IMG/VR virus record: IMGVR_UViG_3300033821_000049
Span: 1 to 55,196 of that record
Source of the DNA: a virus
Lineage: Duplodnaviria > Caudoviricetes
DNA length: 55,196 nucleotides
Direction: 5' to 3' (one strand)
Positions 2,606-36,479 of the stretch are shown in pieces; within the stretch, counting starts at the first letter, position 1; each line of letters opens with the position of its first letter. The notes beneath the pieces are model-generated. The model ran no database searches, was not told the origin of the DNA, and was given only the letters and a program-made list of their open reading frames with translations. Made by a program: the position numbers and the translations under genes.

Positions 2606-2619
2606 TTAAAAAAGTATTA

Positions 2620-6320: not shown

Positions 6321-6346
6321 CTCTTGACAATCTAAATTAAAATGAT

Positions 6347-6354
6347 TATGTTTG
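6347..6354 (+). promoter_or_regulatory. Bacteroidota-type sigma70 promoter
   Basis: CTTG at about 6323 and TATGTTTG at 6347-6354. Confidence 0.55.
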
Positions 6355-6374
6355 CAATTGCTAAAATTGTAAAC

Positions 6375-8718: not shown

Positions 8719-8726
8719 ACCTTTTA

Positions 8727-9398: not shown

Positions 9399-9412
9399 AA
9401 CTGTTAATTATA

Positions 9413-9973
9413 ATGAATAATAGTGAATTTAATAGTAAAGAATATTGGGAAAATAGATATAAATCTGGTGACGATTCGGGTATTGGCTCAAAAGGTATTA
9501 TTGCACAATATAAGGCAGCAATAATAAACAATTTTGTTAAAGAAAATAACGTTCAGACAGTTTGTGAACTTGGTTGTGGTGATATACAATTTAGTTTATA
9601 TAATGTGCCTGAGTTTACTGGTTATGATGTTAGTGATTTTGTTATTGAACGAAATAAAAAATTATACGAACATAAATTTACCACACTAATGAGTGATCTT
9701 ACGTCATATGATTTAACCATGTCATTGGATGTAATACTTCATTTAATTGAAGATGAGGTTTATTATCAATATATGAAAGACTTGTTTAGATTAAGTAAGA
9801 AATATGTAATTATTTATAGTCCTGACAGAGATCAAATTTTTTCTGGTATACATAATAAATTTAGAAAATTTACATCAGATGTACCAAAAGAATTTAAATT
9901 AATAGAGTTAATTAATAATCCATATAAGGGAGAATATACTCAAGCAGATTTTTATATTTTTAAAAAAGAATAA
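9413..9973 (+). CDS. Class I SAM-dependent methyltransferase
   Basis: YWENRY..G..SG.GS, VCELGCGD, GYDVS, SLDVILHL. Confidence 0.8.
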   Translation: MNNSEFNSKEYWENRYKSGDDSGIGSKGIIAQYKAAIINNFVKENNVQTVCELGCGDIQFSLYNVPEFTGYDVSDFVIERNKKLYEHKFTTLMSDLTSYDLTMSLDVILHLIEDEVYYQYMKDLFRLSKKYVIIYSPDRDQIFSGIHNKFRKFTSDVPKEFKLIELINNPYKGEYTQADFYIFKKE

Positions 9974-9976
9974 TTA

Positions 9977-10750
9977 ATGATATCAATAATAACAGCATAT
10001 TATAATAGAAAAAAGCAATTTTATGAAACTCTTAAATCGATTGCAAAATCAAAATATAAAGATTTTGAATTAATTGTTGTTGATGATGGGAGTCTGCCCG
10101 AACATCGCTTGGAAGAATATCTTACCTTGTTTTCGTTTTTAAAAATAATTAGAATTGAACCAAAAGATAAATGGTATGTAAATTCGTGCATACCCTTTAA
10201 TGTTGGCATACGTGCTGCTACTGGTAATATAATAATACTTCAAAATCCAGAGTGTTTACATGTACATGATATACTTACATATATTAATGAGAATATTAAT
10301 GATACTAATTATATTGCAATATCAACATATGCAATGGATGAAAATTTAACCAATAATTTACCAACATTATTAAATGATAATTTCATTCAATATTTTAAAT
10401 CATTACCACAAAAGTTTATTGGTGGCAATCCTTGGAATGGATGGTATTGCCATTCAAAATATAGACCAGAGTATTTTCATTTTTGTGCTGCAATAACTAA
10501 AAAAAACATGAAATTACTTAATGGTTTTGATGAAAGATATGCAAATGGTATTGCATGTGATGATGCTGAATTTGTTATTAGAGTTGGAAGATTAGGGTTA
10601 AATAAGATAATATGTGATGATCTTTCTGTAATACATCAATGGCATCCTACTTATTATTATGCACTTCCGAATGCAAGTAATTTGCGTGAAATAAATGGTG
10701 CTATGTTGAATATAACAAAAAATGAAACGGGATATAGGGTAAATAATTAA
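9977..10750 (+). CDS. Glycosyltransferase family 2
   Basis: ISIITAYYNR, IVVDDGS, GFDERY...DDAEF. Confidence 0.85.
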   Translation: MISIITAYYNRKKQFYETLKSIAKSKYKDFELIVVDDGSLPEHRLEEYLTLFSFLKIIRIEPKDKWYVNSCIPFNVGIRAATGNIIILQNPECLHVHDILTYINENINDTNYIAISTYAMDENLTNNLPTLLNDNFIQYFKSLPQKFIGGNPWNGWYCHSKYRPEYFHFCAAITKKNMKLLNGFDERYANGIACDDAEFVIRVGRLGLNKIICDDLSVIHQWHPTYYYALPNASNLREINGAMLNITKNETGYRVNN

Positions 10751-10763
10751 GAAATAAATTAAA

Positions 10764-12653: not shown

Positions 12654-12666
12654 TTATTATGTTGAT

Positions 12667-13272
12667 ATGGACACAATGAAATTAAATATTAATGATAAAT
12701 ATATTGATGAATTCCCTGACGAATTTAAAAAATCTTATTTAGATTTTAAAAATGGTTTGTTCGATACTGAAGAATGGGGCAGTCATCAGCCATTATTAAT
12801 TCATTTAGTAAACACAATTACAGAAGGAAGCGTAATTGAACTTGGCATGGGAGATAATAGTACTCCATTATTGCATCTGTTGTGTGAAAAATTAAGAAGA
12901 AAATTATTTAGTTATGATTTTGATAATAATTGGTATAATAAATATAAATTATATGAAAATGATAATCACAAACTGTTTTTATTAGACGAAAATTTATTTC
13001 GTAATAACAAATATAATTTTGATAGAAGTACAATAATGTTTATTGACTCACATCCTGATTGGACAAGACAACACGCAATATATTTTTTAAGGAATTATGC
13101 TGATTATTTTATTGTGCACGACACTTCATATGTAAAAGATGGTGTTGTTTGTTCGGATAATAATTATGATTTTGACTTTTTTAAAAATGTCTTACATTTC
13201 AATAAAGTAAGCAGAGTATCAACTCTTTTTACAAATAAAGATATAACGGAAGAATTAAATAAAATTTTTTAA
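12667..13272 (+). CDS. Putative SAM-dependent methyltransferase
   Basis: VIELGMGDNST, FIDS, IVHDT. Confidence 0.55.
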   Translation: MDTMKLNINDKYIDEFPDEFKKSYLDFKNGLFDTEEWGSHQPLLIHLVNTITEGSVIELGMGDNSTPLLHLLCEKLRRKLFSYDFDNNWYNKYKLYENDNHKLFLLDENLFRNNKYNFDRSTIMFIDSHPDWTRQHAIYFLRNYADYFIVHDTSYVKDGVVCSDNNYDFDFFKNVLHFNKVSRVSTLFTNKDITEELNKIF

Positions 13273-13284
13273 TTAAATTGTTTT

Positions 13285-14067
13285 ATGAATAAAGTATTAG
13301 TGATAGGTGATGGTTGTAAAGATGTGTTTCAATATGGAAAGTGTGAAAGGTTAAGTCCTGAAGCACCTGTACCTATATTTAAACCGACAAAAGCCACAAA
13401 TAATGGTGGTATGGCAGTAAATGTGTATAATAATTTAATCGCATTGGGTGTTGACTGTGATATTTTAACCGAGAGTGGTATAACCAAAACTCGTTATGTT
13501 GATGAAGTCAGTAATCAGATGTTGCTTAGAGTTGATGAGAATGATGAAATTTTTGTTAGTCAAAATATGTACGATAAAATCAAGAATTTTGATTATAGTA
13601 TATATGATGCAATAGTTATATCTGATTATGATAAAGGGTTATTAAGTGAAAAAATGATAAAACGTATTGCAGATAATTATCCTTTAGTTTTTATGGACAC
13701 CAAGAAGAAAATTGATGAATGGGCATGGAATGTTAAATATATTAAAATAAATGAAAAAGAATTTAATCAAAATCAAGAATATTTAATGTATAAACATCCA
13801 AATGATGTAATTGTAACATTGGGTAAAAACGGTGCAAAACGTTATTGGAATTATAATGGTGAATGTAAAATTGATTCATTTCCAAATATAAGTGAGCATC
13901 CAGTACGTGATCTTACAGGTGCTGGTGATACTTTTTTTGCAGGACTTGTTGCAAAATTCATAGAAAATAACGATATTTGTGATGCAATTATTTTTGCCAA
14001 TAAGTGTGCTGCATGGGCAGTTACACAAAAAGGTGTGGCAGTGGTTGATAGATATAAAATTAAATAA
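13285..14067 (+). CDS. hldA: D-glycero-beta-D-manno-heptose-7-phosphate kinase (PfkB family, HldE/RfaE kinase domain)
   Basis: VLVIGD..D....G...RLSPEAPVP, ISDYDKG, DLTGAGDTF. Confidence 0.85.
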   Translation: MNKVLVIGDGCKDVFQYGKCERLSPEAPVPIFKPTKATNNGGMAVNVYNNLIALGVDCDILTESGITKTRYVDEVSNQMLLRVDENDEIFVSQNMYDKIKNFDYSIYDAIVISDYDKGLLSEKMIKRIADNYPLVFMDTKKKIDEWAWNVKYIKINEKEFNQNQEYLMYKHPNDVIVTLGKNGAKRYWNYNGECKIDSFPNISEHPVRDLTGAGDTFFAGLVAKFIENNDICDAIIFANKCAAWAVTQKGVAVVDRYKIK

Positions 14068-14068
14068 T

Positions 14069-14446
14069 ATGATAGACATTACACACATAAGTAATAAAAA
14101 TATTCATGTACCAAAAGCATGGGGTGAAGAAGTTGTTATTCATAATGGTGATGATTATTGTGGAAAATTATTACGTTTTAGAAAAGGTGGTATGTTCAGC
14201 ATGCATTTTCATTCACTAAAGACTGAATCATGGTATGTTAATTACGGTAATTTTGTTTTAGCATATATTGACACTAAAACTGCTGATAGAAGATTAACTA
14301 ATTTAGTTAAAGGCGATATCGTACATATTGAACGTAATACTCCACATCAACTTAAAGCACTTGAAGAAGGTGAAATATTTGAAGTTAGCACACCACATAT
14401 GGATGAAGATAGTTATAGAATAGAGAAAGGAGATAGCCAATTATAA
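14069..14446 (+). CDS. Cupin-domain protein (sugar isomerase-like); start moved to ATG 14069
   Basis: VPKAWGEE...YCGKLL...SMHFH..KTESWYV...PHQL...EVST; the ATG directly follows the kinase stop. Confidence 0.75.
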   Translation: MIDITHISNKNIHVPKAWGEEVVIHNGDDYCGKLLRFRKGGMFSMHFHSLKTESWYVNYGNFVLAYIDTKTADRRLTNLVKGDIVHIERNTPHQLKALEEGEIFEVSTPHMDEDSYRIEKGDSQL

Positions 14447-15387
14447 TGGTAATATTCGTTGACATAGATGGTACAATTTGTCATACTGAGGGCGGTTATG
14501 TAAATGCAATACCAATTGTAAGTGCAATTCATAAAATAAATCGTCTTTATGAAATGGGACATAACATAACTTATTGGACTGCAAGAGGAAAAAGTAGTGG
14601 TATTGATTGGTCTGAGTTAACGAAAGCACAGTTAAAAGAATGGGGATGTTTATATCATAAATTAAGTTTTGATAAACCTGCTTATGATTGCATTCTGGAT
14701 GACAAAGCACTTAAAATGAGAGATGTTAGATTAGGTGTTGTTGGTGGTGTATCTGGAATATATAAAATTGAATCAAAAACAGATTCAAATAAATTTTATA
14801 TTGGTAGTTCAAAAGATATAATTGAACGATGGAGTAATCATCTTTATCATTTAGAAAAAAATAAACACCATTCTTCAATTTTACAGAATCATTATAATGA
14901 ATATGGAAGAAATGATTTATTATTTTCAATTATTGAAGAATGTAATATTGAATGTTTAATTGATAAAGAACGTGAATATTTAAAAAATTTAAAACCATAT
15001 TTTAATATTTATCAAGAACCGGGCAGTCCTAAAAATCATCATTTTTCCGATGAAGCAAGAAAAAATATGGGTAAAGCACATCTTGGTAAAAAACAGTCAG
15101 AAAAAACGAAAAGAAAAAGAAGTTTGTCAATGATGGGTCATTCGGTAAGTAAAGAAACTATTACTAAAATTGTTGAAAAAAGAAAAAATTATAAGCATTC
15201 TGAGATAACAAGAAATAAATTAAGAATTACAAGTACTGGTAATAAAAATGCGGTGGGACATAAAATGACACCTGAACAGTTGGAAAAGAATAGAGAAAGA
15301 GGAAAGGAACAAATAAAAAACATTAAAAGAAACGATAAGGGACAATTAATGAAAAAAATTATAGTATTAACCAATATAAATCAATGA
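14446..15387 (+). CDS. HAD-family phosphatase fused in frame to a GIY-YIG/NUMOD3 homing endonuclease
   Basis: N-terminal FVDIDGTI...WTARG...KPAYD..LDDKA; then SGIYKI...FYIGSS and H.FS.E.R..M..AHLG NUMOD3-like repeats. Confidence 0.8.
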   Translation: MVIFVDIDGTICHTEGGYVNAIPIVSAIHKINRLYEMGHNITYWTARGKSSGIDWSELTKAQLKEWGCLYHKLSFDKPAYDCILDDKALKMRDVRLGVVGGVSGIYKIESKTDSNKFYIGSSKDIIERWSNHLYHLEKNKHHSSILQNHYNEYGRNDLLFSIIEECNIECLIDKEREYLKNLKPYFNIYQEPGSPKNHHFSDEARKNMGKAHLGKKQSEKTKRKRSLSMMGHSVSKETITKIVEKRKNYKHSEITRNKLRITSTGNKNAVGHKMTPEQLEKNRERGKEQIKNIKRNDKGQLMKKIIVLTNINQ

Positions 15388-15821
15388 ATATTTGGACAAA
15401 TGGATGCTTTGATATTTTACATACAGGGCACATAGATTTATTATGGTATGCGAAATTATTTAATCCTGAATTATTATTATTCCCAATACAAAGACCTATT
15501 TGGACAAATAAATTATTTGTTGGAATTGATAGTGATGAAAGAGTTAAGAAATTGAAAGGAGATAAACGACCAATTAATGACCTTAACACAAGGTTAACAA
15601 TAATACGCAATTTAAGAATGGTTGATAAAGTATTTATATTCAATACAGATGATGAATTGAGAGATTTAGTTAAAGCATTAAATATTGATATTATGATTGT
15701 TGGCGATCAATACAAGGATAAAGAAGTAATTGGATATGAAAACTCAAAATATGGTGTGATATATTATCCCGTTGATAGTCGTTCAACGACAAATATTATT
15801 GAAAAAATTAAGAACTTATGA
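15384..15821 (+). CDS. hldC: Heptose-1-phosphate adenylyltransferase (HldE/RfaE nucleotidyltransferase domain)
   Basis: TNGCFDILHTGH, VGIDSDERVKKLKG..RPIN, STTNII. Confidence 0.85.
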   Translation: MNIWTNGCFDILHTGHIDLLWYAKLFNPELLLFPIQRPIWTNKLFVGIDSDERVKKLKGDKRPINDLNTRLTIIRNLRMVDKVFIFNTDDELRDLVKALNIDIMIVGDQYKDKEVIGYENSKYGVIYYPVDSRSTTNIIEKIKNL

Positions 15822-16780
15822 TAGTTGTAACAGGTGGTGAAGGATTTATAGGTAAAAATCTTGTTAAAAAGTTAGAGAGACAAGGCTATGTCGGTGTTGT
15901 AAGTCTTGATACAAAAACTGAAAATCTTGGTTTTATTTATTCTTGGCTTTTAACCTATGCCGAGCAAATTGATTGTATATTTCATCTTGGAGCAATCACT
16001 GATACAACTGTTATGGACAAAAACTTGTTTGATGAATATAATGTTGAATCTTCAATTTTTATCTGGAATTTATGTTCAGATTGGGATATACCATTGATTT
16101 ATGCAAGTTCTGCAGCAACATATGGTGATGGTAAAGAAGGATTTGATGATGAAAAAAATATTCTTAATTTAAAACCTCTTAATCCATATGGCTGGTCAAA
16201 ACAACAATTTGATATATGGGTATTAGAGCAAAAACAACAACCACCAAACTGGTATGGTCTGAAATTTTTCAACGTATATGGTTATGGAGAAGCACATAAA
16301 GGTGATATGGCATCAGTTGTATATCAAAAATATCTTGAAATTAAGGCAAATGATAAAGAATTTGAACGTAAGGTTAATGAATACGGTGCATATAGTGGCT
16401 ATTATTTTGTAAATTTATTTAAATCACATCGTCCAGATTATGAAAATGGTGAACAAAAAAGAGATTTCATTTATGTTGATGACATAGTTGATGTTTGTTT
16501 ATTTTTATACAATAAAAAACCACTTTCTGGTATATATAATGTCGGTACAGGCAAAGCACGTACATTTAATGATTTGGTAAAAGCAGTATTTAAAAGTCTT
16601 GGCAGAGAACAAAATATTAAATATATTGACATCCCCAATAAAATCAGAGATAAATATCAATATTTTACTGAGGCAAAGACAGATAAATTGAGGTATACCG
16701 CAGGATACACAGCAATGTTTCATGAGTTAGAAGATGGAGTTTTGAAGTATATAAATAAATTAAAAAATGAAAATAGGTAA
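15818..16780 (+). CDS. rfaD: ADP-L-glycero-D-manno-heptose-6-epimerase
   Basis: IVVTGGEGFIG, FHLGAITDTT, YASSAATYG, PLNPYGWSK, FFNVYG..E.HKG.MASV, RDFIYV, YQYFTEA. Confidence 0.9.
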   Translation: MIVVTGGEGFIGKNLVKKLERQGYVGVVSLDTKTENLGFIYSWLLTYAEQIDCIFHLGAITDTTVMDKNLFDEYNVESSIFIWNLCSDWDIPLIYASSAATYGDGKEGFDDEKNILNLKPLNPYGWSKQQFDIWVLEQKQQPPNWYGLKFFNVYGYGEAHKGDMASVVYQKYLEIKANDKEFERKVNEYGAYSGYYFVNLFKSHRPDYENGEQKRDFIYVDDIVDVCLFLYNKKPLSGIYNVGTGKARTFNDLVKAVFKSLGREQNIKYIDIPNKIRDKYQYFTEAKTDKLRYTAGYTAMFHELEDGVLKYINKLKNENR

Positions 16781-28705: not shown

Positions 28706-30832
28706 ATGAGCGAAAATACTGAAAATACCCTAACTTCGTACTTAGGTCCTGAATTTCAACAACGTTTAATGTGGCAATTATTGGTTGAACCAGAATTTGC
28801 AGAAAAAACGATTCCTAATTTAGCTGTTGAATATTTTGATGACCCAAATTTAAAAAGACTTTTTATAATAATATTGGAATTCTATAAAGAATTTAATAAA
28901 GTCCCAAATCTTCAGAATCAAAGTATATTACAAGCAATTAACAAATATAAAAGTCCAAATAATATTATTGAGGAAGAATCATTATTTGCTGTAATAAAAC
29001 GTATTGAATTATGGAATGAAAGAATTATTAACAAACAATTATTATATGATGGTGATGTTGTACAAAAGCAAACCACATCATTTATAAAACAACAGGAATA
29101 TAGAAAAATTGGAGAATATATACTTGGTAAAACAAAGAATGGTGAAATAAAAAGTAAATATGTTATTACTGATATTGAAGATAAATTTCAAAAAGTTGCA
29201 CATATTGGAGATGAAGAAGACTATGGGACTGATGTGTTTGATAATATCGATCATGCATTGAGGAAAGAATTCAGACAAACAATACCCACAAGCATTTTTG
29301 CTATTGACACATTAACAGGTGGTGGACTTGGTAAAGGCGAAATTGGGGTTATTCTAACTCCTTCTGGTGTTGGAAAGACAACAATGCTTACCGTAATTGC
29401 AAACAGTGCATATGAAGAAGAAAAAAATGTTGCTCAGATAGTATTTGAGGATACTATCGAACAGATTCAACGTAAGCATTTTACTATATGGTCAAAAGTT
29501 CCGTTAAGCAAAATTGATATTCCTGAACAAAACGTCATAGTTAATAGAATTGCACACGAGAAAGCAATTAATATGAGGGGTAAAGGTAATCTTGTTATTA
29601 AGAAGTTTAGTCAGGAGAATACCACAATGATGGATATTCGCAAATGGATGATAGGTTATGAGAAAAAATATGGCATTAAATTTGACATACTTGTGCTTGA
29701 CTATTTGGACTGTCTTGAATCTCATAAAAAATCTCCTGACAGAAATGAAGCCGAACTTGTAATCATAAAATCTTTTGAAGCATTGGCTGCAGACTTTAAT
29801 ATACCAGCATGGACTGCAATTCAAACAAATAGAAGTGGTTTTAATGCTGAATATGTTGAAGCATATCAAACTGGTGGTAGTATTAAAAGAGTACAGAAAG
29901 CACATTTTTTTATGAGTGTTGCCAAAACGAAAGATCAACAGGAAGCAAGTTTAGCCAATATTAGAATTATTAAAGCAAGATTTGCAAAAGATGGTCAGGC
30001 ATTTAATGACTGTGTGTTTAATAATGATACATTAGAAATCAAAATTGAAGACCCTAAATATCCTTTACAAACAAAAGGACTAAAACATCATGACAGTGAA
30101 GATATTAATAAACTTGATGAAAGTATTGTTGAAATACAGAAAAAATCATCTGAATATGGACTGCATCTTGCAATTAGTCGTGAAATGAGTTTAACTGAAA
30201 TGGTAAATGACCCAAGTGTTAATGACCATATACCTGACAAGGAAGCACCAATAGATATTGATCAATTTACTCCAAAGACTGATGATGCAGAAATTGTAAA
30301 TATGCATATTGAAACAACCAGAACTGATTTATCTGAAACTGAAATAAAACAAATATATAATATTGCAAAAGAGGCAATTACTGAAACAAAGAAGAGTGAT
30401 GGACTTATTGAAATAGATGAAACTGTAGAAATAAAGACTGTAAATGAGGGTGTAAATATAGGTTTACCATCACCAATAGGTAAAATATGTTATATTGAAC
30501 CTAAGAAAAAAGATGATTTATTGGAATTAAGTGGCGATACTATAATCAGAAAAGTAATTGAAGTTGAGGTAAAATTAGAAGATTTACCATCAAAAGGAAT
30601 GAATCTTGAAAAAAATATTATACTGGAAGAAGTAAAACTTTCAACACCAAAAGTGATAATAAACTCAGAAAAAAAAGAAATAATTTCTTCGAAAGCAATT
30701 TTAAATAAAGAACAACTTGAAGAATTTGAAAAAGGACTAAAAAATCCAGATGCCTTACCAGTTGAGCAAATGGGATTGCATGAAAAATTAAATTTGATCA
30801 TGAAGAAGCAAGATATTTTCAATAAAAAATAA
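28706..30832 (+). CDS. dnaB: Replicative DnaB-like helicase with a long C-terminal extension
   Basis: GGGLGKGE, Walker A PSGVGKT, LVLDYLD, WTAIQTNR, IIKARF. Confidence 0.88.
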   Translation: MSENTENTLTSYLGPEFQQRLMWQLLVEPEFAEKTIPNLAVEYFDDPNLKRLFIIILEFYKEFNKVPNLQNQSILQAINKYKSPNNIIEEESLFAVIKRIELWNERIINKQLLYDGDVVQKQTTSFIKQQEYRKIGEYILGKTKNGEIKSKYVITDIEDKFQKVAHIGDEEDYGTDVFDNIDHALRKEFRQTIPTSIFAIDTLTGGGLGKGEIGVILTPSGVGKTTMLTVIANSAYEEEKNVAQIVFEDTIEQIQRKHFTIWSKVPLSKIDIPEQNVIVNRIAHEKAINMRGKGNLVIKKFSQENTTMMDIRKWMIGYEKKYGIKFDILVLDYLDCLESHKKSPDRNEAELVIIKSFEALAADFNIPAWTAIQTNRSGFNAEYVEAYQTGGSIKRVQKAHFFMSVAKTKDQQEASLANIRIIKARFAKDGQAFNDCVFNNDTLEIKIEDPKYPLQTKGLKHHDSEDINKLDESIVEIQKKSSEYGLHLAISREMSLTEMVNDPSVNDHIPDKEAPIDIDQFTPKTDDAEIVNMHIETTRTDLSETEIKQIYNIAKEAITETKKSDGLIEIDETVEIKTVNEGVNIGLPSPIGKICYIEPKKKDDLLELSGDTIIRKVIEVEVKLEDLPSKGMNLEKNIILEEVKLSTPKVIINSEKKEIISSKAILNKEQLEEFEKGLKNPDALPVEQMGLHEKLNLIMKKQDIFNKK

Positions 30833-30926
30833 TTATTTTATAAAATTTATAACTTTTTTATTTTTATTACGTATTTATTAATCCGAACGACAGTGAAAAA
30901 ATTTTTTAAAAATATTTTGGAAAATA

Positions 30927-30958
30927 CTTGTATATTAAAAATATCTTTATTACGTTTG
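30927..30958 (+). promoter_or_regulatory. Bacteroidota-type promoter driving the ncRNA cluster
   Basis: CTTG (30927-30930) and TACGTTTG (30951-30958). Confidence 0.6.
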
Positions 30959-30975
30959 CATCGTCTTAGGATAAG

Positions 30976-30986
30976 TGTTCTTTAAA
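30976..30986 (+). promoter_or_regulatory. boxA-like antitermination element (1 of 3)
   Basis: TGTTCTTTAAA; also TGTTCTTTGAAA at 31337-31348 and CGTTCTTTAAAA at 32356-32367. Resembles rrn boxA TGCTCTTTAACA. Confidence 0.55.
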
Positions 30987-31003
30987 TAATTGAAATTAAA
31001 AAC

Positions 31004-31136
31004 GGGGAAGTATGCGAATAAAATTCAAAAATACTATCGTAATACTCCTTACTGGAGAACTGATTGTGTTTACAGAAAAAGTACAGCAAATTGTCGTTCA
31101 AACAGTTGATTGGTGACTCGATATCACCCTTCCCCA
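31004..31136 (+). ncRNA. tRNA-like RNA E1 (acceptor stem + T-arm) carrying the conserved stem module
   Basis: GGGGAAG/CTTCCCC+A 7-bp stem; GGTGA-CTCGATA-TCACC T-arm; internal GGAGAACTGATTGTGTTTACAG. Confidence 0.6.
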
Positions 31137-31141
31137 CAAAG

Positions 31142-31267
31142 AAATGGAAACGGCTTGTTATTACAGTAAACAATTAGCTCAGTGATAGAGCGTCCGCATT
31201 CAAAGCAGAAGGTCGGGGTGTCGAAACCCCATCATGTAAAACAACATAACAAACAAATTATCCATTT
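31142..31267 (+). ncRNA. Y-RNA-like RNA E2 with an embedded tRNA body (UCA anticodon)
   Basis: Terminal stems AAATGGA/TCCATTT and TTGTTAT/ATAACAA enclose a D-arm (GCTC/GAGC), anticodon arm (loop ATTCAAA), AGGTC and a T-arm (GGGGT/ACCCC). Confidence 0.6.
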
Positions 31268-31279
31268 TCCTTATAACAT

Positions 31280-31328
31280 GCCAGTTCCCTTACTCATAAG
31301 AACAAGGCGCATAGAACTGGCTTTTTTT
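31280..31328 (+). terminator. Hairpin with U-tract (terminator or processing signal)
   Basis: GCCAGTTC...GAACTGGC followed by TTTTTTT. Confidence 0.55.
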
Positions 31329-31387
31329 GAAATTAATGTTCTTTGAAAACTATAGTTCGATTTAAAAGTCCGCAGTATTTATAATAA

Positions 31388-32152
31388 ATGTGTATTATGA
31401 ATAATTGTTTAAATTGTGGAAAATTTGTAAACAATAAATTTTGTAATGTTTCTTGTCAAAATGAATTTCAAAACACTGGAAGAAATGATAAAAAATATGG
31501 AAAATTTGTTGATTATTTGGTTAAATGTAATTCATGTGATAAAATTTTTATTGTAAATGAACGTGAAAAATTATATCCACAAAAGAAAAAATATTATTGC
31601 TCACGAAGTTGTGCAAATAAAAGAAAGCATTCACAGAAAACCAAAGATAAACTTTCTTTGAAAAATAAAAGAGTTAAATTTGTTAATTGTGAATATTGTG
31701 GAAATAGTTTTGAGCAGAAAAAAATAGATCAAAGATTTTGTGGACATTCATGTTCTACTAAATCTCGAATGCCACTAAAAGGATATGAAAGAATTGGTGG
31801 CTTGTGCTCTGTGAAATCACAAAATAAAAGAGGTAAAAATGAAATATATTTTGCTAAACTATGTTGTGATAAATTTAAATCTGTTCTTTGCAATAAACAA
31901 ATTTTTAATGGATGGGATGCTGATGTTATTATTGAAGATTATAAAATTGCAATATTATGGAATGGTATTTGGCACTATAAAAAAATATCAAAAAATCATT
32001 CTTTAATACAAACAAAGAATAGAGATATTTTAAAAATTAAAGAGATTATTAATTGTGGATACGAACCATATGTAATAAAAGATTTAGGAAGATTTGATAA
32101 AACCTTTGTTATGAAGGAATTTGAAAATTTTAGAAAACACATAGCGGGGTAG
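31388..32152 (+). CDS. Zn-ribbon repeat protein with a C-terminal PD-(D/E)XK (Vsr/DUF559-like) endonuclease; probable homing endonuclease
   Basis: Repeated CxxC...(F/Y)CxxSC units; WDADVII....IAILWNGIWHY...RD..K. Confidence 0.65.
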   Translation: MCIMNNCLNCGKFVNNKFCNVSCQNEFQNTGRNDKKYGKFVDYLVKCNSCDKIFIVNEREKLYPQKKKYYCSRSCANKRKHSQKTKDKLSLKNKRVKFVNCEYCGNSFEQKKIDQRFCGHSCSTKSRMPLKGYERIGGLCSVKSQNKRGKNEIYFAKLCCDKFKSVLCNKQIFNGWDADVIIEDYKIAILWNGIWHYKKISKNHSLIQTKNRDILKIKEIINCGYEPYVIKDLGRFDKTFVMKEFENFRKHIAG

Positions 32153-32215
32153 AGAAGCGGCATCTCACGAGCCTCATAAGCTCGGAATCACAGGTTCGAG
32201 TCCTGTCCAACGCTA
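32143..32215 (+). tRNA. tRNA-Met (CAT), initiator-like, with an imperfect acceptor stem
   Basis: AGCGGGG TA GAGA/TCTC, CGAGC-CTCATAA-GCTCG, ACAGG-TTCGAGT-CCTGT, CCAACGCT A; no encoded CCA. Confidence 0.8.
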
Positions 32216-32220
32216 CAAAA

Positions 32221-32300
32221 TGAAGAACTGGTGGTTTTTACAGTAAAATAAATTTAAGCCAAATGTAAAGTTACCAAACAAAAACCAACGAAATTCTTCA
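32221..32300 (+). ncRNA. Y-RNA-like RNA E3 (conserved stem, unstructured A-rich insert)
   Basis: TGAAGAA/TTCTTCA and TGGTTTTT/AAAAACCA stems; GAAGAAC...TTTACAGTAA motif. Confidence 0.55.
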
Positions 32301-32373
32301 AATTTATAAAAAGTAATTCCCCGTTGTCCCTGTGGCAACACAAACTTCGGGGTATCGTTCTTTAAAAATGCAA

Positions 32374-32511
32374 AGGGAAAACTTAAAGTGTTTACAGCAA
32401 TTTCGGTGGTTCGAATCCATCATCCTGCCAATGGCAGAATTAGACAAGCGGTTAAGTCAAAACTCTATGAAAGTTTCAAAACAATTCAAAAATACTTTTA
32501 AACTGTTCCCT
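32374..32511 (+). ncRNA. YrlA-like RNA E4 with a circularly permuted tRNA-His-like domain
   Basis: AGGGAA/TTCCCT and AAAGTGTTT/AAATACTTT stems enclose T-arm, loop-closed acceptor stem, D-arm and anticodon arm, in that order. Confidence 0.7.
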
Positions 32512-32726
32512 AAGTTTTAAAACGGAAATGGGTGAAGATAAATTATTTTCAATAAAATTAAACCCAACCCGTTTAATACCTAACATTTGAAGCATGTTGC
32601 AACGTGCGTGGTTAAGAATGGTTTTTATCAGCAGAAGTGCTGAGTTTTTTCAAAAATAAAGAAATAGTTATTGTGTCTAAGTTAAGCCAGATCGCAAGAT
32701 AGGACTTTTTTTCGGCAGTAATAAAA

Positions 32727-32821
32727 AGAAGAACTTGTTGTGTATACAGTAGATTGAAAAATGTAATCCCCCTCATATGAGAAGGGGGACAAACTTACCA
32801 AAATACAACTAAACTTCTTCT
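32727..32821 (+). ncRNA. Y-RNA-like RNA E5 (conserved stem plus GC-rich hairpin)
   Basis: AGAAGAA/TTCTTCT and GTTGTGT/ATACAAC stems; GAAGAAC...TATACAGTAG; insert TCCCCCTCATATGAGAAGGGGGA. Confidence 0.55.
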
Positions 32822-32850
32822 CTTATTTGAGAAGTGTTTGTTTTTCTTAC

Positions 32851-32900
32851 AAAAAATGGGTGGGGACTTGATGTAGAAATATATCACCTCACCCATTTTT
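32851..32900 (+). terminator. Terminator closing the ncRNA cluster
   Basis: AAAAATGGGTGGGG...CCTCACCCATTTTT followed by a U-rich tract. Confidence 0.7.
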
Positions 32901-32981
32901 ATTTTTTATTCTAAATTATTTTTATTTTTTTATTCTAATTTATTTTTTATATTAATTTATTATTATATATTTGCACATTAA

Positions 32982-33692
32982 ATGGAAAATGAAGTAAAAA
33001 TATATACATTATCACACCCAATAACTAATGAAGTTAGATATGTGGGTAAAACGGTTGAATCTTTGGAAGAAAGATTACGTAAACACATATCAAGAAGAGA
33101 TAATACATATAAAAGTAATTGGATTATTTCTTTGAAAAAGGAAGGCTTAACTCCAAATATTGAGTTACTTGATGAATGTTCTTTGGTTGATTGGCATTGG
33201 CTTGAAAAATATTGGATTTTACAATTTAAATGTTGGAATTTTAAATTAACGAATATTTGTGAGGGTGGTAAAGGAAGTGATGGATTGAAACATTCTATTG
33301 AAAGTAAAGAAAAAATGAGTCAACGACAAAAAGGTAAACAATGGAGATTAGGTGCTGTTCTTACTGATGAAACCAAAGAAAAAATTAGATTAGGTAATTT
33401 AAATAAAAAAAGAAATCCTGATTCAGTAAAAAAAATGATAATAACAAAAACTGGCATGTCAACTGGCGTTGGAAGAAAACATACTATGACACATATAAAC
33501 AATATTAGTAATGGTATGATTAAAATAAAAGGAAAATCAGTGTCACAATATGATTTAAATATGAATTTTATTAAAGATTGGGCATCAATATCAACTGCCT
33601 CAAAAACACTAAAAATACCTAATAGTAATATTGTTAATGTTTGTAAGGGTAATAGAAAAACGGCAAAAAATTTTATTTGGATATATAATTAA
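32982..33692 (+). CDS. GIY-YIG homing endonuclease with NUMOD3/NUMOD1 motifs
   Basis: KIYTL...VRYVGKT...RLRKH...LEKYWI...LTN..EGG; KHSIESKEKMS; V.QYDL. Confidence 0.85.
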   Translation: MENEVKIYTLSHPITNEVRYVGKTVESLEERLRKHISRRDNTYKSNWIISLKKEGLTPNIELLDECSLVDWHWLEKYWILQFKCWNFKLTNICEGGKGSDGLKHSIESKEKMSQRQKGKQWRLGAVLTDETKEKIRLGNLNKKRNPDSVKKMIITKTGMSTGVGRKHTMTHINNISNGMIKIKGKSVSQYDLNMNFIKDWASISTASKTLKIPNSNIVNVCKGNRKTAKNFIWIYN

Positions 33693-33705: not shown

Positions 33706-35346
33706 ATGGAAAATTTAGTACTAACAAAATCAAGTTTAGATTTAATTAAATCTTCAATTATTCAAGGACTTGAAACAGCGAGTGGAAGTCGTAGTTCTGC
33801 AACTTACTACCATTCAAGAGACGAACAAATGAAGGCTATACATGGTCAGATTGACAAGTTGTATAAACTTTCAAAGGAACTTCCATTGATCATAGCTGCT
33901 CAGAAAGGTGCTACAGGTCAATTCGTTTCAGAAGTGTTGCTTAATGAATTTAAGCAAACATTAAAGGGCGGAGCATGTAATATTGTGAATCCAATCGACT
34001 GGTATGACAATGGTATCAGTGACAAGGCAGTGCTTAGTGCATTAAACAACCTTGCTAATGATAATGGTTTTCCATATGCATTACGTCTTTTTGTTGATAT
34101 GAAGAATCAGAAAATTAACAATGAGAGATCAAGAAAAATTATACTTGGTTTTCTTTGGGGACAAGCAAATATGGAATTCTATGCAATGAAGTACCGTAAC
34201 AAAATTGCAAAAATTTTGAAACATGTATATGGTCAGAAAAAGACCAGCATATTGCTTTCTATTGCACAGAAACAAGTTGCAATTAATAACACTGTTCTTT
34301 TCAATAATGTTTATACTGAAAAAGAAGCAAAAATTGTTAATGAATGTATTACAAAATATTACAATGGTGATGCATCAAAAGCATTTAAATTGTTACTTTT
34401 CTTATTTAAGAAAGATAATGGTGTTAATTTTTACGATTTACCACTTTTAACTGAATATGAAACAGCAAAAGTTGACATCAGGAATATTAAGAATGTTCCA
34501 GAAGAAGTTTTGCTTGGCTTAATTTCATCTGTAAAACATCCACAGTATCATTCAATGTGGTCAACTGATCTTCAGAGAGAAACCACAAAGGGTATAATCA
34601 GAGCAACAGTTCAGGTAACCTCTGTGAACCAACAGGTTCGTCAGACCAAATCAACTGCAAAGTTGGGTGTTGAAAAACATGTTGACTTGGAAAAAGCAAC
34701 TGATTTTATGGCTCTTTACAAAACTGGTTACGAAACCACTTTTACTGATGAATTGAAAATGGCTATTGGTAAACTTGCTGTTGCTAAGAGAATTCAGGGA
34801 TTCTTCTACCAAAATATTGGTATTATAGTTGACGACAGTATTTCAATGACTGGTCATAAGGCAGAATCAAAGAATACTCCAAGGGCAATTGCTGATTTTA
34901 CAGCTATAGTACTTGCAGCTTCAGTAACTGAAGTTGTAGTTGTAAGAACAAGTGGTTTTGAAAGTGATTTGGCAAGTTCATTTATTGAACTATTAAAAGA
35001 TCAGAATCCAGCAAAACCTTACGATGCTATTTTCATCTTAACTGATGGTTACGAAAATGCTTATGATGGATTGACTAACGAAGTTATTTCAATCTGGAAA
35101 ACAGAATCAGGCAGTATAACACCTATCTTTCAGATTTCACCAATTACTGGTGCTGAAACAGGTGGTAATGTAAGAGCATTAGGTGTTGGAGTAGTTACAA
35201 TGGCGATTAACAATCCTATTGCAATTCAGACACAAATCAATGCAAGATTGCTTGAAATTGACACAAAACGTTGGTTAGAAAATCAGGTTCATGCTCTTGA
35301 AGCTGCTCCTGTTAAGAGAACAAAAAAAATTACTATTAACGCTTAA
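33706..35346 (+). CDS. TROVE/Ro60-like helical protein with a C-terminal vWA (MIDAS) domain; start moved to ATG 33706
   Basis: 546 aa, basic alpha-helical N-region; vWA motifs IGIIVDDSISM (DxSxS), SDLA and IFILTDGYEN; architecture and size match Ro60/Rsr. The vWA call is firm; TROVE is inferred. Confidence 0.6.
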   Translation: MENLVLTKSSLDLIKSSIIQGLETASGSRSSATYYHSRDEQMKAIHGQIDKLYKLSKELPLIIAAQKGATGQFVSEVLLNEFKQTLKGGACNIVNPIDWYDNGISDKAVLSALNNLANDNGFPYALRLFVDMKNQKINNERSRKIILGFLWGQANMEFYAMKYRNKIAKILKHVYGQKKTSILLSIAQKQVAINNTVLFNNVYTEKEAKIVNECITKYYNGDASKAFKLLLFLFKKDNGVNFYDLPLLTEYETAKVDIRNIKNVPEEVLLGLISSVKHPQYHSMWSTDLQRETTKGIIRATVQVTSVNQQVRQTKSTAKLGVEKHVDLEKATDFMALYKTGYETTFTDELKMAIGKLAVAKRIQGFFYQNIGIIVDDSISMTGHKAESKNTPRAIADFTAIVLAASVTEVVVVRTSGFESDLASSFIELLKDQNPAKPYDAIFILTDGYENAYDGLTNEVISIWKTESGSITPIFQISPITGAETGGNVRALGVGVVTMAINNPIAIQTQINARLLEIDTKRWLENQVHALEAAPVKRTKKITINA

Positions 35347-35357: not shown

Positions 35358-36479
35358 ATGATTACAAGAGAACTTACAGAAATGTTAAAAGGTTGCCGTC
35401 CTGTCAAAGACAAAGATGGTAACATCGTGGTACAGTCAATAATGAACATGCAAGTTGTATGCTTGACAACTGAGAAAGAAAACTCATTGGATGATCGCTT
35501 TGCGAATCCATTGACTTCATTAGTATCAAGTAATCAATCTTACGGACAGATTACGTTCAGTAATAAAGAGAACAAAGAAGTTATTTTTCCAGTTCAAATG
35601 GCTGTATTGACCAAACAACAGGCACAAAATCATGGTATGGTAAAAGCTGGTTATGTTGAACCTAAAGCAAATACAACATTTCATGACGCAGGTTGTGTTC
35701 AAGGTGGACAGACTGGATATTTTCAGGGTACTCAGGAGTTCAGAATGATTCCTGTTAGCATGCGTGAAATGTTGTTTGATAAGGTTGGTCAGACATCTGG
35801 CTATCAGAATATTTATCCTGCAATCCAGAAACTCGGTCAGGATACTAAATCTGGTACTGGTAATTATCTGAACATTTACTTTGAAAAGTTTGACAAGAAA
35901 CTTGATCAGTTTATTGCACACTTTGAACGTCCAAAGAATCTTATTGGTATCATTGTATTGATTGATGGTGAAATTGTTGCGATAGATAAATTCCCTTCAT
36001 TTACATACGCTGAACAGGTATGGGATTTGATGATCAGGGATTGCTATGGTTCACTTGCAATCATAAGTGAATTGCAGAACAAAACTGCAGGTAAGGTATT
36101 TACTGAAGCATATGAAGATGTTAAAAAGGGCACAGATAAATATGCTGTTGCAGGTAAGTATTCTATCGTTGATTTGCTCGAACAAGCATTGAAGAAAACC
36201 AAGAAATCGATTACTGATGATGTTAATGAGAGAATTCAGGAAGTTCTTGATCTCACATTTGATGCTACTATTGACACTGAAGGTAATCCTTCTGCAAACA
36301 GCAGAGCACCTAAGAGTTATATTCTTAAAACTGAAGGTTATATTGGTCAGGTAATTACTGAAAACGAATTTAATCATTTGGTGTCAATTATCAAAAGAGA
36401 GAGATTCAATCCAAATGCTTTCAGACAAGTAAGTGAACTTAGAAATAAGGCACGTAAAATGACACCATTCAAAATATAA
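35358..36479 (+). CDS. ARPP-like (DUF6569-related) protein, partner of the vWA protein
   Basis: VLTKQQAQNH...AGCVQGGQ.G...LDQFIAHFE...GIIVLIDGEIVAID recalls ARPP-type domains (recall only); starts 11 nt after the vWA gene. Confidence 0.5.
   Translation: MITRELTEMLKGCRPVKDKDGNIVVQSIMNMQVVCLTTEKENSLDDRFANPLTSLVSSNQSYGQITFSNKENKEVIFPVQMAVLTKQQAQNHGMVKAGYVEPKANTTFHDAGCVQGGQTGYFQGTQEFRMIPVSMREMLFDKVGQTSGYQNIYPAIQKLGQDTKSGTGNYLNIYFEKFDKKLDQFIAHFERPKNLIGIIVLIDGEIVAIDKFPSFTYAEQVWDLMIRDCYGSLAIISELQNKTAGKVFTEAYEDVKKGTDKYAVAGKYSIVDLLEQALKKTKKSITDDVNERIQEVLDLTFDATIDTEGNPSANSRAPKSYILKTEGYIGQVITENEFNHLVSIIKRERFNPNAFRQVSELRNKARKMTPFKI

What the first reader, a model, noticed from the sequence alone, without database searches (positions are those of the whole stretch)
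31142..31267. tRNA body with a UCA (opal-reading) anticodon whose acceptor stem is replaced by the conserved stem (E2)
Seen: TA-GCTC-AGTGATA-GAGC D-arm, TCCGC-ATTCAAA-GCAGA anticodon arm (TCA at 31200-31202, one mismatch), canonical AGGTC variable loop and GGGGT-GTCGAA-ACCCC T-arm, in normal order. There is no good 7-bp acceptor stem; the ends run into the shared terminal stem instead. This is a second, different way of fusing tRNA mimic and stem. A UCA anticodon is complementary to the UGA stop codon, so it might engage ribosomes at UGA, or be a degenerate Trp/suppressor tRNA recruited as a Y-like RNA (inference).
Basis: partly seen in the sequence, partly recalled or inferred. Interest (0 to 1): 0.72.

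Follow-up and report, generated by a model that had tools for sequence, protein, structure and literature searches.

The report
Phage Y-like RNA mimicking tRNA
This is a small phage RNA shaped like a tRNA whose two ends are locked into a conserved stem, most likely a partner RNA of a Ro60-type ring protein encoded nearby and not a reader of the UGA stop codon.

Summary
At 31142-31267 a D arm, anticodon arm, variable loop and T arm lie in tRNA order. There is no 7-bp acceptor stem; both ends run into a two-helix stem.

Rfam's tRNA model scores it 33.7 bits (cut-off 29). ARAGORN calls nothing.

In 48 distinct orthologues the loop takes 28 forms and 17 triplets, with TCA in 13. TGA ends 7 of 44 long ORFs in the window. 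A complete relative carries about 50 better-scoring tRNA-model matches elsewhere.

The Y-like reading is supported:
- Arms and stem covary.
- Five paralogous RNAs share the stem.
- The gene at 33706-35346 models as a Ro60 ring (Z 18.3), although Pfam TROVE misses it.
- An ARPP-1 gene follows it in 55 of 61 cellular loci.

Handle-plus-tRNA RNAs of the E2 type lie just upstream of this gene pair in Planctomycetota, Myxococcota and other cellular loci, often inside large tRNA arrays.

Binding and function are inferred, not shown.

This scan had already noted the same system in at least 28 other genomes. My literature searches found no description of it.

The parts
31142..31148 (+). E2 handle, helix P1, 5' strand (AAATGGA)
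   Evidence: Pairs with 31261-31267. One pair covaries within the phages (AU 41, UA 6, GC 1). 7 of 7 pairs covary across phages and cellular loci.
31149..31151 (+). Invariant AAC of the internal loop, 5' side
   Evidence: Entropy 0.00 in 48 orthologues. Part of the motif shared by E1-E5.
31152..31161 (+). E2 handle, helix P2, 5' strand (GGCTTGTTAT)
   Evidence: Pairs with 31246-31255. 9 of 10 pairs covary across phyla.
31162..31169 (+). Junction TACAG-TAA; the W-C-A-G motif is conserved from phages to bacteria
   Evidence: [AT]T[ATC]CAG is present in 31 of 40 cellular hits (one of them a spurious hit); the others carry near variants.
31170..31174 (+). Residual acceptor-like strand (ACAAT)
   Evidence: A 4-5 bp stem in most orthologues (ACAAT/ATTGT, GAAAT/ATTTC); weak in the window copy.
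31175..31230 (+). tRNA-like body: U8-A9, D arm, anticodon arm (loop 31198-31204, TCA 31200-31202), variable loop, T arm
   Evidence: Rfam tRNA 33.7 bits. The D, anticodon and T stems covary.
31231..31245 (+). 3' acceptor-like remnant and A/C-rich junction (ATCATGTAAAACAAC)
31246..31267 (+). Handle 3' strands: P2 (ATAACAAACA), internal loop AATTA, P1 (TCCATTT)
   Evidence: Among the lowest-entropy segments (0.10-0.17 for the two helix strands).
31280..31328 (+). Terminator-like hairpin (GCCAGTTC...GAACTGGC) followed by T7, just after E2
   Evidence: MFE -15.2 kcal/mol, z -3.0. Conserved in 4 related loci (T1 rows).
31004..31136 (+). E1: acceptor stem (GGGGAAG/CTTCCCC) and T arm, with the handle inserted as a hairpin
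32144..32214 (+). tRNA-like gene with anticodon CAU, inside the cluster
   Evidence: Rfam 44 bits. Not called by ARAGORN.
32221..32299 (+). E3: handle with a small hairpin
32374..32511 (+). E4: handle carrying a circularly permuted tRNA-like body
32728..32820 (+). E5: handle with a GC-rich hairpin
33706..35346 (+). Ro60-fold protein (helical ring plus vWA/MIDAS domain); presumed binder of the handle
   Evidence: AF2 pLDDT 93.6. The top 12 Foldseek PDB hits are all Ro60/TROVE. VIA Z 18.3, rmsd 4.3 A, 407 residues aligned. No Pfam match.
35358..36479 (+). ARPP-1 domain protein, constant partner of the Ro60-fold gene
   Evidence: Pfam PF20208, E 6.9e-15. Adjacent in 55 of 61 cellular loci. Fused in P0263.

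Best explanation
E2 is a non-coding RNA of about 126 nt, of the Y-RNA kind. Its 5' and 3' ends pair into a conserved handle: P1, an asymmetric internal loop with invariant AAC, P2, and a UACAG / A-C-rich junction.

The handle takes the place of the tRNA acceptor stem. It carries an L-shaped tRNA mimic made of D, anticodon and T arms.

The handle is the docking site for the Ro60-fold ring protein encoded at 33706-35346, which works with the adjacent ARPP-1 protein. The tRNA-like module is presented to some tRNA-recognising factor, as a tether, gate or bait. The anticodon triplet is not used for decoding.

Shown: the anatomy, conservation and covariation of the RNA; its five-fold paralogy; the Ro60 fold of the neighbouring protein; and the recurrence of the RNA / Ro60-fold / ARPP-1 trio in phages and distant bacteria.

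Inferred: that the protein binds the handle, and what the particle does.
For: (1) Structure. Rfam tRNA 33.7 bits. Among 48 phage orthologues, 94.1% of cells are paired and 14 of 36 pairs change on both sides, 0 of 500 shuffles. Among 39 sequences from phages and cellular loci, 34 of 36 pairs change on both sides, including 7 of 7 in P1 and 9 of 10 in P2; 92% of cells are paired against 36-43% when the partners are slid.

(2) The handle is the most conserved part and the anticodon the least.

(3) The same handle occurs five times here and only inside the cluster: 5 in the window, 4 in G001 and 5 in G002, with 0 controls and 0 elsewhere in those 363-kb and 299-kb genomes. E2 to E5 each pair best with their own 3' strand.

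(4) The neighbouring protein has the Ro60 fold.

(5) Co-occurrence. The RNAs and the protein are both present in G001, G002 and G004. In G003 and Lak-C1 the protein is absent and the motif scan found no handles (G004 was not in that scan and its elements come).

(6) Distant cellular relatives of the protein carry an E2-type RNA (handle, WCAG, then a tRNA body with a variable loop) directly upstream on the same strand. There are 40 full-length model hits in 49 loci, and 30 of the 49 loci have one upstream by my hand tally.

(7) Known Ro60 proteins, including phage ones, bind Y RNAs encoded next to them. D. radiodurans Yrn1 has the same topology, with the terminal stem at the acceptor position plus an anticodon-like arm (passages of PMC4201824; PMC12135203).

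(8) E2 lies in contigs of RNA libraries from 2 studies (X15 31058-31373; X17 31156-31306). This is weak, because DNA carry-over is not excluded and one sample may be the source of the window.
Against: - No binding was tested.
- The YrlA/Yrl recognition motif GNCGAAN0-1G (or CGAA) on the 5' strand is absent from E2.
- No Rfam Y-RNA-type family matches at E up to 10.
- Pfam TROVE does not see the protein. A PDB sequence-profile search finds no Ro60. The link rests on a predicted fold.
- E2 is 2.4 kb from the protein gene, separated from it by two endonuclease-like ORFs and a terminator-like hairpin.
- The handle could instead be a processing or stability element.
- The covariation alignments were fitted to the model, and the sequences are related by descent.
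Confidence: 0.62

Rival explanations
1. A stand-alone tRNA decoy or bait. The tRNA-like body soaks up or senses a tRNA-directed nuclease or modifying enzyme. The handle only closes and stabilises the RNA, or marks processing sites, and the Ro60-fold protein is not its binder.
For: - The L-shape features are kept while the loop triplet changes fast.
- The module sits in or beside tRNA arrays. A listed abstract calls the tRNA arrays of mycobacteria a putative anti-defence system (PMC12803027; abstract only).
- RNA ligase genes are present in G001 and G002.
Against: - The near-invariant handle sequence, shared by five otherwise different RNAs, points to one common sequence-specific binder.
- The RNA is coupled to the Ro60-fold / ARPP-1 pair across phyla.
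Confidence: 0.17
2. An opal-reading (UGA) suppressor, or a ribosome-engaging tRNA mimic.
For: - TCA at 34-36 with U33 and A37 in the window copy.
- TCA is the commonest triplet, at 13 of 48.
Against: - There are 17 different triplets among 48 orthologues, including TTA, TTC, CAA, GTC and CAT.
- The ends are sealed in a two-helix handle. There is no CCA and no 7-bp acceptor stem.
- ARAGORN is negative.
- TGA ends 7 of 44 long ORFs, and the standard code gives 93% coverage.
- The complete relative G001 has 55 tRNA-model matches. Most are at 195-237 kb and score 42-75 bits, against 37.5 bits for its E2 orthologue.
Confidence: 0.03
3. A precursor of an unusual but functional tRNA, which is cut out of the handle by RNase P/Z or by phage enzymes.
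For: - A complete D, anticodon and T cloverleaf core, with U8, A14, G15-C48, U33 and A37.
- It lies in a cluster with another tRNA-like gene.
Against: - The acceptor-like stem has only 3-5 bp. In cellular homologues the D arm follows CAG almost directly.
- The identity of the 'anticodon' is not conserved.
- In cellular homologues many loops lack U33 or R37.
Confidence: 0.05
4. A decayed tRNA pseudogene left over from a tRNA array, with no function.
For: - The low tRNA score, the 6-nt T loop and a D loop without GG in the window copy.
- The homologous endonuclease gene of Lak-C1 sits in a true tRNA array.
Against: - 48 distinct orthologues with compensatory changes in every arm.
- The handle has near-zero entropy.
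- The architecture is conserved in bacteria.
Confidence: 0.02
5. A cis-acting leader or regulatory structure of the operon, rather than a free RNA.
For: In cellular loci the E2-type element lies about 140-570 nt upstream of the Ro60-fold gene on the same strand.
Against: In the phage, five copies are spread over 1.8 kb. A terminator-like hairpin follows E2, and two inserted ORFs lie before the protein gene.
Confidence: 0.05

Closest known systems
Deinococcus radiodurans Y RNA Yrn1 with Rsr (Chen et al. 2014, PMC4201824; passages read)
   Same: - The 5' and 3' ends form the protein-binding stem.
- D-like and T-like arms.
- The hairpin between them occupies the anticodon-arm position, so the terminal stem stands where the acceptor stem would be. 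This is the topology of E2.
- Encoded near the Ro60 gene.
   Different: - Yrn1's anticodon-like loop has 6 nt and it has no variable arm. E2 has a 7-nt loop and a 5-nt variable loop.
- E2's handle sequence is unrelated.
- The protein here is not recognised by Pfam TROVE, and it is coupled to ARPP-1.
YrlA RNAs of Salmonella, M. smegmatis and mycobacteriophages (PMC4201824 passages; bioRxiv 10.1101/312249, abstract only)
   Same: A modular Y RNA: a Ro-binding stem plus a close tRNA mimic with D and T arms and no free CCA end.
   Different: - In YrlA the acceptor-like stem is closed by a loop and the Ro-binding stem continues from the anticodon-stem position. In E2 it is the reverse.
- YrlA carries GNCGAAN0-1G near its 5' end. 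E2 does not.
- No Rfam match other than tRNA.
Thermus phage phiLo Ro60 with Yrl1 and Yrl2 (PMC12135203, passages; PDB 9KOP, 9L5Y)
   Same: - A phage-encoded Ro60 ring with several Y-like RNAs encoded upstream of its gene.
- A stem, internal loop, stem handle.
- A structural match to the window's protein: Z 14.6-14.9, rmsd 5.2-5.4 A.
   Different: - The phiLo RNAs were picked by a CGAA motif, and the passages I read do not describe them as tRNA-shaped.
- No ARPP-1 partner is mentioned in those passages.
- About 12-13% sequence identity.
Suppressor tRNAs of stop-codon-recoded phages (recalled, not from a call)
   Same: A tRNA-shaped gene with a stop-complementary triplet in a large AT-rich phage.
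   Different: - Such tRNAs need an acceptor stem, a free 3' end, a conserved anticodon and in-frame recoded stops.
- None of these is seen here.
Horizontally spread long tRNA arrays (L-arrays) with homing endonucleases (PMC8421152, passages)
   Same: - The cellular relatives of the module sit within arrays of up to 37 tRNA genes in about 9 kb.
- Endonuclease genes interrupt the phage cluster.
   Different: - Those papers describe arrays of functional tRNAs.
- The passages read do not mention the handle RNAs or the Ro60-fold / ARPP-1 pair.

Membership tests
Functional (decoding or suppressor) tRNA | Cloverleaf core with D, anticodon and T arms that scores above the Rfam tRNA threshold | tested here: met
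   33.7 bits against a cut-off of 29.
Functional (decoding or suppressor) tRNA | 7-bp acceptor stem with a free 3' end | tested here: not met
   Only 2-3 pairs in the window copy and 4-5 in orthologues. Both ends are enclosed by P1 and P2. ARAGORN finds 0 genes.
Functional (decoding or suppressor) tRNA | Anticodon conserved among orthologues | tested here: not met
   17 triplets and 28 loop heptamers in 48 distinct orthologues.
Functional (decoding or suppressor) tRNA | For a suppressor: the genome reads the stop as sense | tested here: not met
   TGA ends 7 of 44 ORFs of at least 150 aa. The standard code covers 93% of the window.
YrlA-type Y RNA | Encoded next to a Ro60 (TROVE) gene | tested here: inconclusive
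   A Ro60-fold protein lies 2.4 kb downstream (Z 18.3). Pfam TROVE matches 0 of 5 records and 0 of 10 distant family members.
YrlA-type Y RNA | GNCGAAN0-1G motif near the 5' end (Chen et al. 2014) | tested here: not met
   The 5' strand reads AAATGGAAACGGCTTGTTATTACAG, with no such motif. CGAA occurs only on the 3' strand of some orthologues.
YrlA-type Y RNA | tRNA-like D and T arms | tested here: met
YrlA-type Y RNA | Ro-binding stem at the anticodon-stem position, with the acceptor-like stem closed by a loop | tested here: not met
   E2 has a full anticodon arm, and the handle sits at the acceptor position.
YrlA-type Y RNA | Match to a curated covariance model | tested here: inconclusive
   No Y-RNA-type Rfam match at E up to 10. 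That Rfam holds a YrlA model is recalled, not checked.
Y RNA in the broad sense (partner RNA of Ro60) | 5' and 3' ends form a conserved bulged stem | tested here: met
Y RNA in the broad sense (partner RNA of Ro60) | Bound by the Ro60 protein | not testable with these tools
   No tool for RNA-protein complexes was available. This needs RIP or EMSA.
Ro60/TROVE proteins (the neighbouring gene 33706-35346) | Helical-repeat ring closed by a vWA domain with a MIDAS motif | tested here: met
   Model pLDDT 93.6. Ro60 chains give Z 12.3-18.3 over residues 12-532, and the next non-Ro hits (vWA only) give Z about 10. DxSxS (DDSISM) is seen, and D376, S378 and S380 are conserved.
Ro60/TROVE proteins (the neighbouring gene 33706-35346) | Sequence-level membership (Pfam PF05731) | tested here: not met
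   The PDB profile search also finds no Ro60.

The most novel reading that the evidence does not exclude
The anticodon loop of E2-type RNAs is a fast-evolving specificity element. In this reading the Ro60-fold / ARPP-1 particle displays interchangeable tRNA mimics in order to sense, bait or neutralise anticodon-directed attacks on particular tRNAs, or to aim the ARPP-1 enzyme at particular tRNA-binding factors. That would make it a programmable tRNA-surveillance particle that travels with tRNA arrays in bacteria and with huge phages.
Probability: 0.2. Interest if true: 0.9.

Novelty: new variant of a known kind. Interest (0 to 1): 0.66.

Why it matters
Ro60 with Y RNAs is a conserved RNA-surveillance machine. 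Its bacterial and phage roles are poorly understood.

E2 shows a second, sequence-unrelated branch of that machine:
- a very diverged Ro60-fold protein that the sequence libraries miss;
- a constant ARPP-1 partner of unknown chemistry;
- partner RNAs that mount tRNA mimics on one handle.

The E2 layout is the one shared by huge phages and distant bacteria, where it sits inside horizontally spread tRNA arrays. This ties three open questions together and makes them testable:
- what bacterial Y RNAs do with their tRNA-like domains;
- what ARPP-1 does;
- why supernumerary tRNA arrays exist.

Cultured hosts such as Stieleria, Thalassoglobus and Minicystis carry the module.

It also corrects an attractive but wrong reading: this is not an opal suppressor.

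Tried and rejected
- **Pfam TROVE (PF05731).** The search of the window and four related virus records gave 0 of 5. Pfam at E up to 10 on the 546-aa protein gave only a chance DUF1689 hit. A PDB sequence-profile search found no Ro60; the best hit had E 2.1 and was unrelated. I therefore relied on the predicted fold.
- **First AF2 model.** It used 29 close homologues and was poor (pLDDT 66). It gave Ro60 hits with TM of only 0.21-0.27. A second model from 118 diverse sequences superseded it.
- **Rfam.** At E up to 10 there was no Y RNA or YrlA-type hit, only tRNA and chance matches.
- **The E2 covariance model R1 in Lak-C1.** It matched 7 places in locus L055 at 32-51 bits. These are ordinary tRNAs of an 18-tRNA array whose AT-rich flanks were forced onto the handle. 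They are not members. R1 scores below about 55 bits therefore need the handle to be checked separately.
- **Reading the window with TGA=W or TAG=Q.** This lengthens no major ORF.
- **Promoter scan.** It was not above chance: 16 found against 13.1 +/- 4.3 expected. The terminator scan did not list the 31280 hairpin, because of its long inner loop. I folded that hairpin separately.
- **RtcB (PF01139).** 0 of 2 complete relatives.
- **RNA-library contigs.** In the four RNA runs laid, no contig covered 30300-30727, and only a trace (0.23, one run) lay on 30728-30834. Nothing covered 32226-32332 (most of E3) or 32975-33188. These were contigs, so no RNA ends, strand or level could be read.
- **Complex prediction, Ro60-fold protein with ARPP-1.** The verdict was weak support only: score 0.59, best of 3 controls 0.01. 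The mark was reached by 58 of 80 solved complexes and 2 of 110 mismatched pairs. At 0.60 or under it was reached by only 7 of those 80 solved complexes and by both mismatches that passed. The runs agree in at least 87% of contacts, and the partner's pLDDT is at least 83. My own alignments were used, so the counts hold only roughly.
- **Bacterial anticodon loops.** My automatic parse is rough. 37 of 39 hits reached 8 of 9 stem pairs, but about five are visibly mis-registered.
- **Supplementary files.** They may bear on the membership rows.
Full report
**Context**

The window is an IMG/VR virus record of 55,196 bp. It is estimated 12% complete, so it is a fragment of a very large phage. It is AT-rich, 23-38% G+C.

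Runs that hold the stretch are labelled peat metagenome.

Under the standard code, stop-to-stop frames of at least 150 aa cover 93% of the window. The two largest gaps are 30830-31387 and 32150-32981. These are the two non-coding blocks that hold the elements discussed here.

**Observation**

- U8-A9 at 31175-31176.
- D arm at 31177-31191.
- Anticodon arm at 31193-31209, with one C.A mismatch. TCA is at 31200-31202, flanked by U33 and A37.
- Variable loop AGGTC.
- T arm at 31215-31230, with a 6-nt loop.

Rfam's tRNA model matches 31170-31238 at 33.7 bits, against a cut-off of 29. ARAGORN calls no tRNA in the window.

The acceptor position has only 2-3 possible pairs. Instead the ends form two helices separated by an asymmetric internal loop:
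- P1: 31142-31148 with 31261-31267.
- P2: 31152-31161 with 31246-31255.

These helices appear in the consensus fold of 14 orthologues. E2's 5' strand with its own 3' strand gives -11.9 kcal/mol, against -4.9 +/- 1.7 for shuffles, 0 of 200.

A terminator-like hairpin plus T7 follows at 31280-31328.

**The shared stem**

A 5' motif, RAAC-N11-ACAG, occurs five times on the + strand: at 31057, 31148, 32225, 32379 and 32731.
- It occurs nowhere else in the window, and the control pattern gives 0 matches.
- In two near-complete relatives (363 kb and 299 kb) it occurs 4 and 5 times, again only in the homologous cluster.
- Each 5' strand has a complementary 3' strand with the same P1, loop, P2 layout.
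- E2 to E5 each pair best with their own partner.
- In E1 the handle is a capped hairpin inserted between an acceptor stem and a T arm.
- E4 carries a circularly permuted tRNA-like body.
- E3 and E5 carry small hairpins.

**Orthologues**

The cluster lies downstream of a DnaB-like helicase (Pfam).
- Of 53 IMG/VR loci fetched with that helicase, BLAST found E2 in 21.
- A pattern scan of IMG/VR for E2's 5' strand gave 73 stretches. From these and the earlier loci I got 47 distinct full-length copies.
- A covariance model built from 14 of them (R1) aligned 48 distinct copies at 100-155 bits.

On that alignment:
- 94.1% of cells pair.
- 14 of 36 pairs change on both sides.
- 134 cells carry double changes, against 40 +/- 5 in shuffles (0 of 500).
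- Slid controls pair at 41-58%.

The alignment is fitted to the model and the sequences are related, so these figures lean towards the structure.

D-loop and T-loop types change together. Copies have either GG with a 7-nt TTCRANY loop, or a short D loop with a 6-nt GTCRAA loop. This suggests that the elbow contact is maintained.

**The anticodon**

The handle is the most conserved part:
- Entropy is 0.10-0.17 for the 3' strands of P1 and P2.
- Entropy is 0.00 for the AAC of the internal loop.

The anticodon loop behaves differently:
- It has 28 different heptamers in 48 copies.
- It has 17 triplets at positions 34-36: TCA 13, TTC 7, CAA 5, TTA 4, GTC 4, and others.
- U33 (42/48), A37 (47/48) and A38 (44/48) are kept.

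So the loop keeps its tRNA-like frame but not its 'codon'.

Three more facts argue against UGA reading:
- TGA ends 7 of 44 long ORFs.
- The RNA ends are sealed.
- The complete relative G001 has 55 tRNA-model matches. Most lie at 195-237 kb and score 42-75 bits, while its E2 orthologue scores 37.5 bits.

**The neighbouring protein**

Sequence methods do not see this:
- Pfam finds nothing.
- A PDB profile search finds nothing.

The protein ends in a vWA-like domain with a DxSxS motif.

A model from 29 close homologues was poor (pLDDT 66). A model from 118 diverse family members reached pLDDT 93.6 and pTM 0.91. With that second model:
- The 12 best Foldseek PDB hits are all Ro60/TROVE chains, with E 2.9e-6 to 1.3e-2 and TM up to 0.50-0.51.
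- VIA-align gives Z 18.3, rmsd 4.3 A and 407 aligned residues for Xenopus Ro60.
- It gives Z 14.6-14.9 for Thermus phage phiLo Ro60 and Z 12.6 for D. radiodurans Rsr.
- The next non-Ro hits, which are vWA domains only, stand at Z about 10.

I therefore take the Ro60 fold as established for the model, and sequence-level family membership as not met.

**The ARPP-1 partner**

The next gene carries Pfam ARPP-1.
- One distant family member, P0263 of 884 aa, is a fusion of the Ro60-fold protein with ARPP-1/ARPP-2.
- ARPP was described as an uncharacterised, probably enzymatic domain of ADP-ribose-related conflict systems (PMC9503650, passages).
- A complex prediction gave weak support only: 0.59 against a best control of 0.01. 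Full counts are under Tried and rejected.

**Co-occurrence and spread**

- The protein is present next to the RNA cluster in G001, G002 and G004.
- In G003 (66% complete) and Prevotella phage Lak-C1 the protein is absent, and the handle-motif scan found nothing in either. G004 was not in that motif scan; its E1-E5 copies were found by BLAST (locus L007).
- This is a small sample and the genomes are not independent.

The family has 350 representatives at E up to 0.001 among 1.84 billion cluster representatives.

A scan of species-representative genomes gave 62 loci. One is the contig of G001, and the other 61 are labelled Planctomycetota, Myxococcota, Bacteroidota, other bacteria and a few archaeal bins.
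- An ARPP homologue lies directly downstream on the same strand in 55 of the 61 loci.
- That is 54 of the 56 loci that have at least 1 kb of room downstream.

In 14 of 15 such loci scanned with Rfam there are tRNA matches. There are 108 in 141 kb, and all are on the gene's strand. ARAGORN finds up to 37 tRNA genes, plus a spurious tmRNA call, in 9.4 kb. The module therefore sits inside tRNA arrays.

**E2 is the shared form**

An alignment of the region upstream of the gene in seven Pirellulaceae loci shows the same architecture as E2:
- P1 (TTCGAGG/CCTCGAA).
- An internal loop.
- P2 (GTCAT/ATGAC).
- ATTACAG.
- Then directly the D arm, an anticodon arm whose loop differs between close relatives, the T arm and an A-rich junction.

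R1 finds 47 hits at E up to 1e-4 in 49 cellular loci, and 40 of them are full length. By my hand tally, 30 of the 49 loci have a full-length hit upstream of the gene.

Of those 40 hits, 39 have a handle duplex of -11.7 to -33.4 kcal/mol.

In a joint alignment of 12 phage and 27 cellular copies:
- 34 of 36 pairs change on both sides, including all 7 of P1 and 9 of 10 of P2.
- 92% of cells pair, against 36-43% when the partners are slid.
- 0 of 500 shuffles match this.

This alignment is again fitted to the model.

**Expression**

Contigs of RNA libraries cover E2: X15 at 31058-31373 and X17 at 31156-31306. They come from two studies, and one sample may be the source of the window.

These are contigs, and DNA carry-over is not excluded. 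This is a weak hint of transcription and says nothing about RNA ends.

**Mechanism**

The best-supported reading is a Y-RNA-like particle.
- The handle docks on the Ro60-fold ring.
- The tRNA-like body projects as a mimic for a tRNA-recognising factor.
- ARPP-1 is part of the same unit.

What the particle does is open. The association with tRNA arrays, the RNA ligase genes in the relatives and the fast-changing loop all point to conflicts over tRNA. That is inference.

**Comparison with the known**

- The topology equals that described for D. radiodurans Yrn1, and is the reverse of YrlA (PMC4201824).
- The YrlA/Yrl motif GNCGAA or CGAA on the 5' strand is absent.
- Phage Ro60 with upstream Y-like RNAs is known from phiLo (PMC12135203) and from mycobacteriophages. 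A jumbo-phage survey also notes TROVE proteins with a tRNA-like partner (PMC7824862).

**Literature**

- No paper in the searched library holds both 'tRNA array' and 'Ro60'.
- The three papers that hold ARPP, tRNA and vWA do not describe this module by their titles and abstracts.
- 'tRNA array' with 'von Willebrand' gave three unrelated papers.
- Subscription journals and supplementary files were not searched.

**Earlier notes of this scan**

Other agents reported the same trio in at least 28 other genomes. I reached the Ro60 fold, the ARPP coupling and the tRNA-array context from my own calls before reading those notes. They agree with my results, but they are not independent evidence.

**Verdict**

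- The opal-reading idea is rejected.
- The Y-like reading is supported.
- E2 is a new variant of a known kind, and the archetype RNA of a Ro60-like branch that my literature searches did not find described.

Noticed in passing
window 32144-32214: A second tRNA-like gene (anticodon CAU, Rfam 44 bits). ARAGORN does not call it, and its acceptor stem has two mismatches. It overlaps the end of ORF 31388-32152. It is 100% identical over 76 nt in loci L031, L032, L033 and L035.
   Followed up: partly
window 31388-32152 and 32982-33692: Two free-standing endonuclease-like ORFs interrupt the RNA cluster. The first has no Pfam match, but it is 74% identical at DNA level to a stretch of Prevotella phage Lak-C1 that lies inside an 18-tRNA array. 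The second is GIY-YIG with NUMOD domains.
   Followed up: partly
window 30977, 31338, 32357: A GTTCTTTRAAA decamer recurs three times at the borders of the RNA blocks (repeat family D9). I did not test this.
   Followed up: no
L123 (minus strand, match at offset 6178 of the reverse complement): One IMG/VR contig has E2's 5' handle strand followed by a GC-rich cargo that is not tRNA-like. This may be another cargo type on the same handle.
   Followed up: no
P0263 (884 aa): A natural fusion of the Ro60-fold family with ARPP-1/ARPP-2 domains.
   Followed up: partly
L134 (Stieleria magnilauensis chromosome) 1017-9388: Around the bacterial module lie an SPFH/Band-7 gene, an endonuclease V gene and a HIT-PLD-helicase fusion, plus a DDE transposase. 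This context resembles a conflict or RNA-repair island.
   Followed up: no
L125 = contig of G001 (362,763 bp): IMG/VR classes this contig as a 100% complete virus. GenBank holds the same contig as a scaffold of a 'Candidatus Paceibacterota bacterium' MAG, so it is probably a phage binned into a bacterial MAG.
   Followed up: no
window 32664-32725: One RNA-library contig (X17, depth 25) joins 32664 to 32725 and skips 60 nt just upstream of E5. This may be a strain variant or a deletion.
   Followed up: no
window 7405-16780: A run of glycosyltransferase, PfkB kinase, cytidylyltransferase-like and epimerase genes, which looks like a sugar-nucleotide or glycosylation cluster.
   Followed up: no
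Cellular loci L134, L135, L144, L151: A tRNA-Cys (GCA) gene lies immediately upstream of the E2-type RNA in several Pirellulaceae. The E2-type RNA itself is called by ARAGORN as tRNA-Lys, tRNA-Leu or tRNA-His, depending on its loop.
   Followed up: partly
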